This document shows positions 1-47,773 of a stretch of DNA of 47,773 nt, piece by piece. The notes below the pieces were generated by a model. That model was not told the origin of the DNA, made no database searches, and saw nothing but the letters and a program-made list of their open reading frames with translations. Source of the DNA: a phage; the NCBI GenBank assembly GCA_036604865.1, contig GCA_036604865.1_4856.1. One strand, written 5' to 3'. Position numbers and translations under genes: made by a program. The stretch's first letter is position 1. Each line of letters begins with the position of its first letter.

Positions 1-72
1 CGTAGCTTAATTGGTTAAAGCAACCGACTCATAATCGGCTGATTGAAGGTTCAAATCCGTCCGTGTCCACCA
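1..72 (+). tRNA. 3-prime 72 nt (including CCA) of the tRNA(CAU) whose full copy lies at 47642-47718; truncated by the window start
   Basis: Bases 1-127 are identical to 47647-47773; T-loop ggttcaaatcc and acceptor 3-prime strand cgtgtcc followed by acca are visible. Confidence 0.6.
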
Positions 73-77
73 AATTA

Positions 78-107
78 AAAGCCGCTTTATGCGGCTTTAT
101 TTATTTC
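78..107. terminator. rho-independent terminator after tRNA (hairpin agccgc-tttat-gcggct followed by T-rich run); also closes minus gene 101-475
   Basis: GC stem 80-96 followed by ttatttatttc; A-rich on the 5-prime side so it can act in both directions. Confidence 0.5.
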
Positions 108-475
108 ACGACCCGCAAAAGCAACTCATGCACAGGTCTTTTCTCTTCCGTTAACATCGGCCTACCGAGCGGCGCTTGCAACTGGATGTAGTTAACGCAT
201 GAATCAATCGGATGCGTCTTAATGTATTCGATAATCTCATTGGCTTTCGCATCGACATCAGCAACGTTGTACTGCCCATGTTTGCCAACAACATACAGCG
301 AGAAGTAGAAGTCACCACCGAGTCCATTCATAACCTGCGTGCCGCCATTGGTTTGCAGGACAATAAATTGCTCATTGCCATCTCCGGTGTCATTCCATAA
401 CTGCAACTGCGAAGTCCACCCATCATACAATCCGGCATCCTGAAGATATGCATCAACCAGTTCAAGTATATTCAC
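101..475 (-). CDS. putative tail terminator / tail completion protein (assigned by position only)
   Basis: 124-aa ORF, last minus-strand gene before the major tail gene across the window junction; no motif recognised. Confidence 0.4.
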   Translation of the reverse strand: MNILELVDAYLQDAGLYDGWTSQLQLWNDTGDGNEQFIVLQTNGGTQVMNGLGGDFYFSLYVVGKHGQYNVADVDAKANEIIEYIKTHPIDSCVNYIQLQAPLGRPMLTEEKRPVHELLLRVVK

Positions 476-16040: not shown

Positions 16041-16070
16041 CAAGCCCTCACTTCGAGGGCTTTTTGTTTG
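16041..16070. terminator. rho-independent terminator (gccctc-acttc-gagggc then tttttgtttg)
   Basis: Hairpin 16044-16060 and T-run after the plus cassette; overlaps the 3-prime end of minus gene 16048-16998. Confidence 0.5.
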
Positions 16071-16998
16071 CCGATTGCCATGCCTCACGCTGCTTATCAA
16101 GCCTTTCCTGCGATGACTCAAGAATGACTGGTTTTCCATCCATTAACAATGCTGGAGTTTGAGCGCAGTGGCAATTATATCTATTGCCATTCTCGCTATA
16201 GAACGTGTCAATCTCTTCTGGCGTGTAAAACCGCCCGTGTCTCGCCGCGTGAGTCTGGCGTGTTGTGCGCATTAATGCTGATTGCCACAACATCACTGTT
16301 TCAATACCTAATTCCTCGCGCGCCTCAATGACCTCCCGCCTGTTTGCCTGCCGCAGCGTTCCGGTTATTTCAGTCTGCGCTAACTGCTTCGCGTAACTGT
16401 GAGATACATCAACACGCTTGGCGATGTCAGCCTCAACATCACGAGGATTAGCACCACGAGCAATGCCTTCCATAATGACAGATGCCAGTTGCTGACGGGA
16501 ATAATCACTCAATCCGCGCCAGTCTGAGTAACCTTGCGTGTACGCCAGTTGCAGTCGACTCAGGTAAGGCTCACTGTAGAGTATTGCAGCAATCGGCCTC
16601 TGCTCGGCGTAAACCGGAGACAGACTTGACAGTTCTGAGTTTGCCTTCTGCGTTCCGGCCTGATACGCATCACCAATGAATACGTTAGCCCACATCATGC
16701 CGTGACCGAAATCATCACCTTCAAGCAGGATTTCATCAATCAGCGCCTGTAATTCATCCATGAAAGTGGCGGCCCGCGCACTGCTGAAGTCATAGAAATA
16801 CAGGCCACTTGATTCTGCATTAGCCTGACTACCAGGAATAGTGCGAAACAACTCAAGCGCACGACTCCTTAGTTGTTTGTATTTGCGCGTTATCACCTTA
16901 TCCATTTTCGAAAGGCGAGTCGCAGCGCCTAACGGGTCGGTAAGGCTCTGCGATATGCGCGGTTGCGGAAGTCTGGCGTTAAACCGGAGTATCTTCAT
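16048..16998 (-). CDS. head morphogenesis protein (SPP1 gp7 / Mu F-like minor head protein)
   Basis: 316-aa ORF in the conserved terminase-portal-head morphogenesis order; assignment from size, position and general resemblance. Confidence 0.5.
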   Translation of the reverse strand: MKILRFNARLPQPRISQSLTDPLGAATRLSKMDKVITRKYKQLRSRALELFRTIPGSQANAESSGLYFYDFSSARAATFMDELQALIDEILLEGDDFGHGMMWANVFIGDAYQAGTQKANSELSSLSPVYAEQRPIAAILYSEPYLSRLQLAYTQGYSDWRGLSDYSRQQLASVIMEGIARGANPRDVEADIAKRVDVSHSYAKQLAQTEITGTLRQANRREVIEAREELGIETVMLWQSALMRTTRQTHAARHGRFYTPEEIDTFYSENGNRYNCHCAQTPALLMDGKPVILESSQERLDKQREAWQSANKKPSK

Positions 16999-17899
16999 TT
17001 CCCTTTTCCTCCATGCTTTAAAACCAAATCAGCCGCCTCGTGGGTTGATATATTGAAAAATTCGCTCGCCCCATCAAATCCGGTTAATCCTGCATTTTTA
17101 TGTTTTATTTCTTTATGTATCATTGATTCAGCCCTTCTCGCGTCAGCCCATGATGGGAATGAGTGCTCAGCAACCACGGTAACAGTTTTCCCTGCTGATT
17201 TTGATATGCTCTTCATTCTTCTTTTGGTGTTGTTGCTTATCCCGATCTTGCACATGCCATCCATTTCAGCCACATATAAGTTTGCAGGCTTAAACCCATA
17301 AGCAGTGCATTTATTGCAACCTGATCCCCTTAAGTGTGAGTTTGGTGTCTGGTAAAAATCGCCATGGATATGACATGTTATACATACTTTCCTTGAGCTT
17401 TTCACATAATTAACTTCTCGTATGAGTATCTCTTCCCATGAATTGCTTTTGCTTTTGTTATGAATGATGCTTTATTGTCGCTGAATTTGTCGGACAGATG
17501 CTCAAGTTTGCACAAGGGGCAACCATTACCTGATAAATGGTTGGCTGGTTGCTGGGAAAAATCACCGTGCTTTTGGCATGTTATTACCACCTTTCGGTGA
17601 GTTCCGGTATATACGCACTTGTCATATGAATATTTATCACCATGGACCATTTTAGCCTTGGAGATAAATTCATCATTTGATGCCATCAATTTTCTTGCCC
17701 GAACATCTCTAGCGCAAAGTTCGCAGCCGTAGCCAGCGAGATGGCACTCCGCTTTTTGAGTAAAGTCGCCATGTTTTCTGCACGTTATTGTTACTTGATT
17801 CTTCGTTCCGGAGAATGCCAATTTATCATAAATGTACTTGTCACCATGTTTTTGCTTGGCGCGAGAAATGAAGTCTTCCGTGGTGAGTCTTTTAGCCAT
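16995..17899 (-). pseudogene. T5orf172 (GIY-YIG-like) domain protein with three N-terminal Cys/His repeats, split into two ORFs by a single-nucleotide frame change near 17403
   Basis: Repeats FI(S/T)(R/K)AK..HG.KY.Y.K....(11 aa)..ITC..HGDF.Q....HL.G.GC..C occur three times; the third spans the ORF junction with correct spacing only after a -1 shift at ATGTGAAAAG; C-terminal LYVAEMDGMCKIGISNN..RR resembles the T5orf172 core. Confidence 0.5.
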
Positions 17900-17993
17900 G
17901 ATTAACCCCGTAGTAGGTTCGTAGATTGAGGATGCAGCAGGGTGTCTACGTTCACCTTTTCGTCTGGCCGGACTAGCTGCACTTGTGATTATA

Positions 17994-19418
<1,425 letters not shown>

Positions 19419-19422
19419 TCAC

Positions 19423-19454
19423 CAATAAAAAATCCCATCACGTTGGATGGGATT
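19423..19454 (-). terminator. rho-independent terminator on minus strand (atcccatc-acgtt-gatgggat then T-run)
   Basis: Read on minus strand the hairpin 19432-19453 is followed by ttttttatt; located just upstream of the portal gene. Confidence 0.5.
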
Positions 19455-19488
19455 ATAACACGAGCTTGCAGTGGCTATGGTTGATGGC

Positions 19489-47641: not shown

Positions 47642-47718
47642 GGACGCGTAGCTTAATTGGTTAAAGCAACCGACTCATAATCGGCTGATTGAAGGTTCAA
47701 ATCCGTCCGTGTCCACCA
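47642..47718 (+). tRNA. tRNA with anticodon CAU (Met, or Ile if lysidine-modified), CCA encoded
   Basis: Cloverleaf: 7-bp acceptor stem with one G-U, D arm gctt/aagc, anticodon loop cuCAUaa, T loop ttcaaat, one A-G mismatch in T stem, discriminator A plus CCA. Confidence 0.75.
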
Positions 47719-47773
47719 AATTAAAAGCCGCTTTATGCGGCTTTATTTATTTCACGACCCGCAAAAGCAACTC
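47647..47773. repeat. 127-bp direct repeat of window positions 1-127 (genome closure overlap or terminal redundancy)
   Basis: Exact identity read from the sequence: cgtagcttaattggttaaagc...cgcaaaagcaactc at both ends. Confidence 0.9.
47724..47753. terminator. rho-independent terminator after the tRNA (same element as 78-107)
   Basis: Identical sequence to 78-107 within the terminal repeat. Confidence 0.5.

What the first reader, a model, noticed from the sequence alone, without database searches (positions are those of the whole stretch)
16995..17899. T5orf172 (GIY-YIG-like) gene with triplicated Cys/His module, split by a single frame change inside the structural block
ORFs 17402-17899 and 16995-17405 together encode three copies of a ~53-aa module (FISRAKQKHGDKYIYDK...VTITCRKHGDFTQKAECHLAGYGCELC and variants) followed by a T5orf172-like domain. 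The third module spans the ORF boundary, and a -1 shift at ATGTGAAAAG (about 17403) restores the exact 11-residue spacing seen in modules 1 and 2. So this is one gene disrupted by a 1-nt indel, a sequencing error in an A-run, or a programmed frameshift. It is inserted between portal and head morphogenesis genes, where mobile nuclease genes often land.
Basis: seen in the sequence. Interest (0 to 1): 0.65.

Follow-up and report, generated by a model that had tools for sequence, protein, structure and literature searches.

The report
Frameshifted phage homing-endonuclease gene
This is an ordinary selfish nuclease gene of a well-known phage type, sitting between the portal and head-assembly genes, and in this genome a single missing base has cut it into two pieces.

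Summary
On the minus strand, ORF A (17402-17899) and ORF B (16995-17405) are two pieces of one 301-codon gene. It encodes three tandem 68-residue-period Cys/His zinc-finger modules (Pfam DUF723/DUF4379, CapR-like) followed by a T5orf172 (GIY-YIG superfamily) nuclease domain.

Five related natural Salmonella phages (NX263, Seszw_1, BS5, PHA46_2, VSt472) carry it as one uninterrupted 906-nt ORF. The window lacks one base: GAGAA^GTT versus GAGAA(A/G)GTT, between 17415 and 17414.

A programmed frameshift is not supported. There is no slippery heptamer and no downstream structure, and the split is not conserved.

The gene has the signatures of a free-standing homing-endonuclease gene:
- It is present or absent at the same site among related phages.
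- It lies between essential genes.
- Its synonymous divergence is 4-8 times lower than that of its flanks.
- Lab deletion mutants of the Seszw lineage are deposited as complete phage genomes.
- A relative carries an independent nonsense mutation.

This class, including repeated zinc-finger modules and frequent frameshifts, has been described (Barth et al. 2023). I cannot tell a real mutation from an assembly error without the reads. Interest is low.

The parts
16995..17899 (-). Whole disrupted homing-endonuclease gene: 905 nt here, 906 nt and 301 codons in intact relatives.
   Evidence: Single ORF in NX263, Seszw_1, BS5, PHA46_2 and VSt472. dN/dS is 0.06-0.19 across the full length.
17402..17899 (-). 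ORF A, 165 aa from MAKRL: modules 1 and 2, the N-terminal helix part of module 3, then 3 out-of-frame residues (LIM) and TGA. PGAP protein MEF4813157.1.
   Evidence: The MAKRL start is the one annotated in BS5, PHA46_2, VSt472 and Skate, with an RBS annotated in Skate. The longer ORF reaching 18058 overlaps the portal gene, and its extra 50 residues model at pLDDT below 50.
16995..17405 (-). ORF B, 136 aa with a GTG start that overlaps the ORF A stop (GTGA): the Cys/His knuckle of module 3 plus the T5orf172 nuclease domain. PGAP protein MEF4813156.1, 'GIY-YIG nuclease family protein'.
17714..17872 (-). Zinc-finger module 1 core (aa 10-62).
17510..17668 (-). Zinc-finger module 2 core (aa 78-130).
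17307..17464 (-). Zinc-finger module 3 core, interrupted by the frameshift.
   Evidence: tblastn splits it into 17464-17411 and 17408-17307, in two frames.
17414..17415 (-). Site of the missing base. The window reads GAGAA^GTT; relatives read GAGAAAGTT or GAGAAGGTT.
   Evidence: Alignment A1; coordinates.
17022..17276 (-). T5orf172 / MUG113 (GIY-YIG clan) nuclease domain, ORF B residues 44-128. The family-invariant residues Y, K-x-G, R, E, H, GFxG and E are all present.
17900..17993 (-). 94-nt spacer between the portal stop and the endonuclease start. It travels with the gene: 100% identical to NX263, Seszw_1 and BS5, and absent from the empty sites of C1 and swi2.
17000..18100 (.). Tract of low divergence from NX263, Seszw_1 and BS5: 0-7 mismatches per 100 nt, against 3-24 (mostly 7-20) in the flanks. 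It covers the gene, the spacer and about 100 nt of the portal 3' end.
   Evidence: Fisher test, gene plus spacer against flanks, p = 2e-18.
16995..16998 (-). ATGA overlap of the endonuclease stop with the head-morphogenesis start.
17994..19415 (-). Portal gene, the upstream neighbour.
   Evidence: PHROG 146, 4e-94.
16048..16998 (-). Head-morphogenesis gene, the downstream neighbour, followed by a terminator-like hairpin at 16042-16062.
   Evidence: PHROG 758, 7e-119.

Best explanation
The region holds one free-standing homing-endonuclease gene of the T5orf172 branch of the GIY-YIG superfamily.

Inferred mechanism from the family: three tandem Cys/His zinc-finger modules (DUF723/DUF4379, CapR-like) read a long DNA target. 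The C-terminal nuclease domain cuts endonuclease-less phage genomes near the portal/head-morphogenesis junction during co-infection. Repair from the endonuclease-carrying genome then copies the gene and some flanking DNA into the cut genome.

In this genome a 1-nt deletion at 17414/17415 has very recently split the gene inside module 3. The intact enzyme can therefore no longer be made. This is the usual decay stage of such selfish genes.

Shown here: the single-gene origin, the exact lesion, the domain content, the variable occupancy of the site and the anomalously low divergence.

Inferred: DNA binding, cleavage, homing, and that the deletion is real rather than an assembly error.
For: One gene: five natural relatives have an uninterrupted 301-codon ORF, and the window lacks one base relative to all of them.

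Selection on the whole length as one frame: dN/dS is 0.06-0.19. Window-specific changes are 7 synonymous and 1 non-synonymous, so the split is recent.

Mobility signatures:
- 144 phage records share the flanks, but only 28 carry this gene.
- C1 and swi2 have empty sites in which the portal end directly abuts or overlaps the head-morphogenesis start.
- Phage Skate has a 42%-identical allele with the same architecture at the same site.
- dS of the gene against NX263, Seszw_1 and BS5 is 0.07-0.10. The portal gives 0.35-0.49 and head morphogenesis 0.60-0.69.
- Gene GC is 41% against 48-51% in the flanks.

Dispensable and decay-prone:
- Lab mutants of seszw lack the gene entirely. They carry the same phage name as the CRISPR genome-reduction study PMC9825161, although the clone names were not found in that paper's text.
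- Two seszw mutants carry a +1 A that produces the same split.
- Klebsiella phage YX3973 has an in-frame stop at the Cys59 codon.

Literature: T5orf172 homing-endonuclease genes with repeated CapR/DUF723/DUF4379 zinc-finger domains are described as frequently frameshifted and as lying near essential genes (PMC10448857).

Real mutation rather than error: the contig closes on itself with an exact 127-nt overlap. From my own knowledge this is typical of a short-read k=127 assembly, a data type in which single-base indels in a 2-3-base run are rare.
Against: - No reads were available, so a consensus or assembly error cannot be excluded.
- The split allele is on record on this one contig only. Its exact junction is absent from IMG/VR and JGI metagenome contigs.
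- Neither cleavage nor homing has been demonstrated for this protein or for any close orthologue. According to PMC10448857, homing of the T5orf172 genes in ICP1 is itself unverified.
- The low-divergence tract could also come from ordinary recombination unrelated to a nuclease.
Confidence: 0.65

Rival explanations
1. The gene is intact in the real phage. The missing base is an error of sequencing or assembly in the deposited E. coli draft contig.
For: - The split allele is seen on one contig only and nowhere in IMG/VR or JGI contigs.
- There is no other sign of decay: window-specific changes are 7 synonymous to 1 non-synonymous, and all catalytic and zinc-ligand positions are kept.
- The lesion lies in a short purine run, AAA or AAGG in relatives.
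Against: - The run is only 2-3 bases long.
- The 127-nt terminal self-overlap points to a short-read assembly, where such indel errors are uncommon. This step is inference from my own knowledge.
- Genuine inactivating mutations of this gene do occur: the YX3973 nonsense codon and the seszw +1 A mutants.
Confidence: 0.25
2. The split is functional. ORF A is made as a stand-alone zinc-finger DNA-binding protein, comparable to the domesticated CapR repressor. ORF B is made by termination-reinitiation at the overlapping GTGA, as a nuclease that keeps one zinc knuckle. The two act separately or together.
For: - The ORF A stop and the ORF B GTG start overlap as GTGA. This arrangement allows translational coupling.
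- ORF B keeps the full CxxH...CxxC knuckle of module 3 and the whole nuclease domain.
- Stand-alone DNA-binding derivatives of T5orf172 endonuclease genes are known, namely CapR (PMC10448857).
Against: - No natural relative has this arrangement; all five are single ORFs.
- The GTG codon is simply Val166 of the ancestral protein, so the overlap is a by-product of the deletion.
- There is no strong Shine-Dalgarno sequence upstream of it.
- The allele is found on one contig only.
Confidence: 0.07
3. A programmed -1 ribosomal frameshift joins the two ORFs into the full-length enzyme.
For: Only the geometry: ORF B is in the -1 frame relative to ORF A, and the two frames are both open over 70 nt.
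Against: - There is no X_XXY_YYZ heptamer in the 70-nt overlap at 17471-17402.
- The 91 nt from 17420 to 17330 fold at -11.9 kcal/mol against a shuffle mean of -11.7, z = -0.07.
- All five natural relatives encode the protein in one frame, so there is no conserved recoding site.
Confidence: 0.01

Closest known systems
T5orf172 homing-endonuclease genes with repeated CapR/DUF723/DUF4379 zinc-finger DNA-binding domains (Barth, Dunham & Seed 2023, PMC10448857; ICP1 vibriophages and others)
   Same: - N-terminal tandem zinc-finger modules followed by a C-terminal T5orf172 domain.
- Variable presence among close relatives.
- Location next to essential genes, at a boundary of sequence exchange.
- Frequent frameshifts and premature stops.
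   Different: - A different phage lineage: 9NA-like Skatevirus and relatives infecting Salmonella, E. coli and Klebsiella.
- The modules score as DUF723/DUF4379 and not as CapR (PF21817 did not appear for this protein at E<=1).
- Only one copy per genome here, whereas ICP1 has many.
- These phages are not mentioned in that paper or its supplements.
Orthologous 'endonuclease' genes of Salmonella phages NX263, Seszw_1, BS5, PHA46_2 and VSt472 (e.g. QQV87715.1, QAY00271.1, YP_010053690.1)
   Same: Same locus and same architecture, 90-98% nucleotide identity.
   Different: Those genes are intact single ORFs. The window copy lacks one base and is annotated as two proteins.
Free-standing GIY-YIG homing endonucleases of phage T4 (Seg proteins) and I-TevI
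   Same: - Modular build of a nuclease domain plus a separate DNA-binding region.
- Intergenic insertion between conserved genes, with co-conversion of the flanks.
   Different: - The domain order is reversed: the nuclease is C-terminal here.
- The DNA-binding part is a tandem array of Cys/His zinc modules, not the zinc finger, minor-groove helix and helix-turn-helix of I-TevI. This last comparison is from my own knowledge, not tested here.
CapR of Vibrio cholerae PLE satellites (PMC8096241)
   Same: A related zinc-finger DNA-binding module family (as stated in PMC10448857).
   Different: CapR is a domesticated repressor without a nuclease domain. ORF A resembles it only in being a nuclease-less array of such modules, and that is by accident of a frameshift.

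Membership tests
T5orf172 / GIY-YIG nuclease superfamily | Match to the Pfam T5orf172 (PF10544) or MUG113 model above the curated cutoff | tested here: met
   ORF B scores 45.0 bits against a cutoff of 20 for T5orf172, and 43.0 against 22.3 for MUG113.
T5orf172 / GIY-YIG nuclease superfamily | Conserved core residues: Tyr of the first motif, K-I-G second motif, Arg, and the C-terminal Glu | tested here: met
   The invariant columns Y44, K53, G55, R63, E93, H97, G109, F110, G112 and E115 (ORF B numbering) are all present in the window copy. A catalytic role for the Glu is stated for one T5orf172 protein in PMC10448857. Which Glu in this protein corresponds to it was not mapped.
T5orf172 / GIY-YIG nuclease superfamily | GIY-YIG alpha/beta fold | tested here: met
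   [not shown]
T5orf172 / GIY-YIG nuclease superfamily | Metal-dependent DNA cleavage | not testable with these tools
   Needs purified protein.
DUF723 / DUF4379 / CapR-like zinc-finger DNA-binding repeats | Profile match above the cutoff | tested here: met
   DUF723 scores 27.6 bits against 20.9 on ORF A. DUF4379 scores 24.3 against 24.5 on the restored protein, just below cutoff. CapR (PF21817) is not listed.
DUF723 / DUF4379 / CapR-like zinc-finger DNA-binding repeats | Conserved Cys/His pattern repeated in each module | tested here: met
   The pattern H..Y.Y...C..HG.F.Q....H..G.GC..C is invariant or nearly so in all three modules across 16-18 homologues. The modules have an exact 68-aa period.
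DUF723 / DUF4379 / CapR-like zinc-finger DNA-binding repeats | Zinc binding and sequence-specific DNA binding | not testable with these tools
   Inferred from the literature on CapR.
Free-standing homing-endonuclease gene | Sporadic presence or absence at one site among otherwise collinear relatives | tested here: met
   28 of 144 flank-sharing records carry the gene. C1 and swi2 have empty sites. Skate has a divergent allele at the same site.
Free-standing homing-endonuclease gene | Evidence of recent horizontal spread: the gene is much less diverged than its flanks, with a co-conversion tract | tested here: met
   dS is 0.07-0.10 for the gene, against 0.35-0.69 in the flanking genes. The low-divergence tract runs from about 17000 to 18100.
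Free-standing homing-endonuclease gene | Dispensable for the phage | tested here: met
   The seszw_70L-type lab deletion mutants lack the gene and are deposited as complete phage genomes. The genome-reduction study is PMC9825161; the clone names were not found in its main text.
Free-standing homing-endonuclease gene | Site-specific cleavage of the gene-less allele and super-Mendelian inheritance in mixed infection | not testable with these tools
   Requires cleavage assays and phage crosses.
Programmed -1 ribosomal frameshift | Slippery X_XXY_YYZ heptamer in the zero frame within the overlap | tested here: not met
   None in 17471-17402.
Programmed -1 ribosomal frameshift | Stable downstream stimulatory structure | tested here: not met
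   z = -0.07 against shuffles.
Programmed -1 ribosomal frameshift | Two-frame arrangement conserved in relatives | tested here: not met
   All five natural relatives have a single frame.

The most novel reading that the evidence does not exclude
The split is not decay but the first step of domestication. ORF A, with two and a half zinc-finger modules and no nuclease, would act as a CapR-like DNA-binding regulator inside the head-gene operon. ORF B would be reinitiated at the overlapping GTGA and persist as a minimal one-knuckle T5orf172 nuclease with relaxed or altered specificity.
Probability: 0.05. Interest if true: 0.45.

Novelty: new member of a known kind. Interest (0 to 1): 0.12.

Why it matters
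It matters little beyond annotation.
- The two PGAP proteins (MEF4813157.1 and MEF4813156.1) should be read as one disrupted homing-endonuclease gene, not as two genes.
- The locus is a clean, small example of what Barth et al. 2023 described for vibriophages: a nuclease gene at a boundary of genetic exchange. Its synonymous divergence is 4-8 times lower than that of the adjoining portal and head-morphogenesis genes.
- Intact, divergent, nonsense, frameshifted, deleted and empty states of the site are all available in sequenced relatives. That makes the locus a convenient system for a first experimental test of T5orf172 homing in enterobacterial siphophages.

Tried and rejected
- A sequence search of the PDB found no solved relative at E<=1.
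- NCBIfam has no model for either ORF.
- The look-up of encoding contigs found no record for ORF B. The listing of cluster members did find it.
- I looked for other copies of the module or the nuclease domain in the window. There are none.
- I looked for the phage in complete E. coli genomes and in plasmids. There is no match.
- I looked for the exact frameshift junction in IMG/VR and JGI metagenome contigs. It is absent. The positive control with the intact junction found two contigs whose lengths (45,881 and 47,604 nt) equal those of the Seszw_1 and BS5 records.
- I checked whether the Barth et al. supplements list these phages. They do not.
- I checked the CiPGr paper for the named mutants. 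The clone names are not in its main text.
- The promoter and terminator scan found nothing above the shuffle expectation inside the gene.

Full report
WHAT IS THERE

The feature lies on the minus strand, between the portal gene (17994-19415, PHROG 146, 4e-94) and the head-morphogenesis gene (16048-16998, PHROG 758, 7e-119).
- ORF A runs from the ATG at 17899 (MAKRL...) to the TGA at 17404-17402.
- ORF B runs from the GTG at 17405 to the TGA at 16997-16995.
- The ORF B stop overlaps the head-morphogenesis ATG as ATGA.
- ORF A matches Pfam DUF723 (27.6 bits, cutoff 20.9) and, more weakly, the 'probable treble-clef zinc finger' DUF4379.
- ORF B matches T5orf172 (45 bits, cutoff 20) and MUG113.
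- The two ORFs hit consecutive parts of one PHROG profile, phrog_681 'endonuclease', positions 237-388 and 396-539.

THE REPEAT IS REAL

In the frame-restored protein the modules start at residues 10, 78 and 146, an exact 68-residue period. Their 53-residue cores share 24-32 of 53 residues without gaps. 100,000 shuffles gave a mean of 3.4 and a maximum of 13. Each module keeps the pattern H..Y.Y...C..HG.F.Q....H..G.GC..C, which is invariant or nearly so across distant homologues.

THE LESION

Four natural relatives were aligned across the junction: Salmonella phages NX263, Seszw_1 and BS5 at 97-98% nucleotide identity, plus a seszw lab mutant. PHA46_2 and VSt472 (90%) were checked by translation. 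All five natural relatives carry the gene as one 906-nt ORF of 301 codons.

The alignment shows that the window lacks one base. It reads TACGAGAA-GTTAATTATGTGA where relatives read TACGAGAA(A/G)GTTAATTATGTG. The deletion lies between window 17415 and 17414, ambiguous by one or two positions because of the purine run.

The ancestral reading is ...SYEK VNY VKSSRKVCITC.... In the window, ORF A ends ...SYEK LIM*. ORF B begins at the codon for Val166, so only residues 163-165 are lost.

NOT A PROGRAMMED FRAMESHIFT

- The stretch in which both frames are open (17471-17402, 70 nt) holds no X_XXY_YYZ heptamer.
- The 91 nt from 17420 to 17330 fold no better than shuffles: -11.9 against -11.7 kcal/mol, z = -0.07.
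- The two-frame arrangement is not conserved in any natural relative.

WHAT KIND OF GENE IT IS

The family is large. A search found 2,347 proteins at E below 1e-5. Many are 400-520-residue arrays of the same module, with or without a C-terminal T5orf172 domain, and some carry a DUF559/Vsr-like domain instead. 662 phage records encode a homologue, often several per genome, annotated as endonuclease, homing endonuclease or T5orf172 protein.

No relative has a solved structure by sequence search. An AlphaFold2 model of a 98%-identical intact homologue is confident over all four domains, with block means mostly 80-95. It is disordered (pLDDT below 50) over the 50-residue N-terminal extension that some GenBank records annotate inside the portal gene.

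SIGNATURES OF A MOBILE, SELFISH GENE

1. Patchy occupancy. 144 phage records share the flanks, but only 28 carry this gene. About 19 of those are derivatives of one lab phage. The E. coli phages C1 and swi2 are among the best overall matches to the first 25 kb of the window. In both, the site is empty and the portal end directly abuts or overlaps the head-morphogenesis start. Phage Skate has a 42%-identical allele with the same three-module-plus-T5orf172 architecture at the same site.
2. Anomalously low divergence. Against NX263, Seszw_1 and BS5, the gene is 97-98% identical and the 94-nt upstream spacer is 100% identical. The portal is about 92% and head morphogenesis about 87% identical (Fisher p = 2e-18). 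At synonymous sites the gene has dS 0.07-0.10, against 0.35-0.49 for the portal and 0.60-0.69 for head morphogenesis. The quiet tract runs from about 17000, with a sharp edge at the gene's stop, to about 18100, roughly 100 nt into the portal gene.
3. Lower GC. The gene is 41% GC, against 48-51% for its neighbours.
4. Dispensability and repeated inactivation.
   - Lab mutants of phage seszw lack the gene precisely. The genome-reduction study on that phage is PMC9825161.
   - Two other seszw mutants have a +1 A about 20 nt upstream of the window's lesion, giving the same 411-nt second ORF.
   - Klebsiella phage YX3973 has an in-frame stop at the Cys59 codon.
5. Selection while intact. dN/dS is 0.06-0.19 across all pairs.

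COMPARISON WITH WHAT IS KNOWN

Barth, Dunham and Seed (2023, PMC10448857) describe exactly this class. Their points are:
- T5orf172 homing-endonuclease genes carry one to several CapR/DUF723/DUF4379 zinc-finger DNA-binding repeats.
- Their presence varies among close relatives.
- They are often frameshifted.
- They lie near essential genes and at boundaries of genetic exchange.
- Homing itself has not been shown experimentally for these genes.

The phages related to this window are not in that paper or its supplements. The present gene is therefore a new, and here broken, member of a known kind.

REAL MUTATION OR ERROR?

The window is the whole 47,773-nt contig of an NCBI E. coli draft assembly. 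PGAP called the pieces as MEF4813157.1 (hypothetical protein, 165 aa) and MEF4813156.1 (GIY-YIG nuclease family protein, 136 aa).

For an artefact, or for a very recent event:
- The split allele is on record only on that contig.
- Its junction is absent from IMG/VR and JGI metagenome contigs. The intact junction was found there as a positive control.
- Window-specific substitutions are 7 synonymous to 1 non-synonymous.

For a real mutation:
- The contig's ends overlap by exactly 127 nt. In my experience this marks a short-read k=127 assembly of a circular or permuted molecule, a data type with few single-base indel errors in 2-3-base runs.
- Genuine knock-outs of this gene occur in relatives.

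I put a real deletion at about 2:1 to 3:1 over an error. Only the reads can settle it.

VERDICT

The single-gene, 1-nt-indel interpretation is supported. The programmed-frameshift option is rejected. The feature is an ordinary decaying or mis-assembled homing-endonuclease gene of a described class, and its interest is low.

Noticed in passing
window 1-127 and 47647-47773: The first and last 127 bases are identical. The contig is therefore a circular or circularly permuted phage genome closed by the assembler, with a true length of 47,646 nt. The overlap length suggests a k=127 short-read assembly.
   Followed up: partly
window 47642-47718 (+): A tRNA-Met (anticodon CAT) gene lies at the contig end, mostly inside the 127-nt terminal overlap. 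Its 3' portion is also present at the start of the window.
   Followed up: no
whole window: The window is a complete 9NA-like siphophage genome, related to Skatevirus, Swiduovirus and Deseoctovirus. It is deposited as a contig of an Escherichia coli draft assembly (PGAP proteins MEF48131xx). The gene region has no match in 5,426 complete E. coli genomes or in PLSDB plasmids. It looks like a contaminating or carried lytic phage and not a prophage.
   Followed up: partly
window 17000-19460 versus L009 (swi2) and L010 (C1): There is a mosaic boundary at the endonuclease gene. Head morphogenesis is 86-87% identical to E. coli phages C1 and swi2. The portal is only 73-75% identical to them, yet about 92% identical to Salmonella Skatevirus phages. 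The last 55 or so portal codons have no nucleotide match in C1 or swi2.
   Followed up: partly
window 17900-18058; L001 2602-2715; L002 2602-2745: The GenBank records for NX263 (1020 nt) and Seszw_1 (1050 nt) start this gene inside the portal gene. The extra 50 or so residues model as disordered (pLDDT below 50), and other records start at MAKRL. Those starts are probably over-extended.
   Followed up: partly
L007 (Klebsiella phage YX3973) 1600-2622: The orthologue, 87% identical at the nucleotide level, is split by an in-frame stop at the Cys59 codon of module 1. This is an inactivation independent of the one in the window.
   Followed up: yes
L003 (seszw_2t1, OL964751) about 2106-2111: Lab mutants of seszw carry a +1 A (GGGAAAAAG) about 20 nt upstream of the window's lesion, giving the same 411-nt second ORF. 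These could be CRISPR-escape indels from the genome-reduction experiments. I did not verify this.
   Followed up: partly
L011 (Skate) 1745-2644: Skate carries a 42%-identical allele with the same architecture at the same site. It shares the upstream spacer and the first 144 nt with the window gene at about 81% nucleotide identity, then diverges. This suggests allele replacement or recombination within the gene.
   Followed up: partly
hits H87-H92 (Klebsiella phages VLCpiS13c, ZCKP8, vB_Kpn_ZC2): The first 79 nt of the gene (MAKRLTTEDFISRAKQKHGDKYIYDK) recur at 89-91% nucleotide identity in otherwise divergent family members (about 38% aa identity) of Klebsiella phages. Some of those are annotated 'HNH endonuclease', which may be a mis-annotation. 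The conserved 5' end hints at exchange of modules between such genes.
   Followed up: no
proteins P0006, P0007, P0015, P0052, P0057, P0062 (P0007 re-scanned): Arrays of the same zinc-finger module are also fused to a DUF559/Vsr-like endonuclease domain in place of T5orf172. The DNA-binding array is therefore shuffled between different nuclease types.
   Followed up: no
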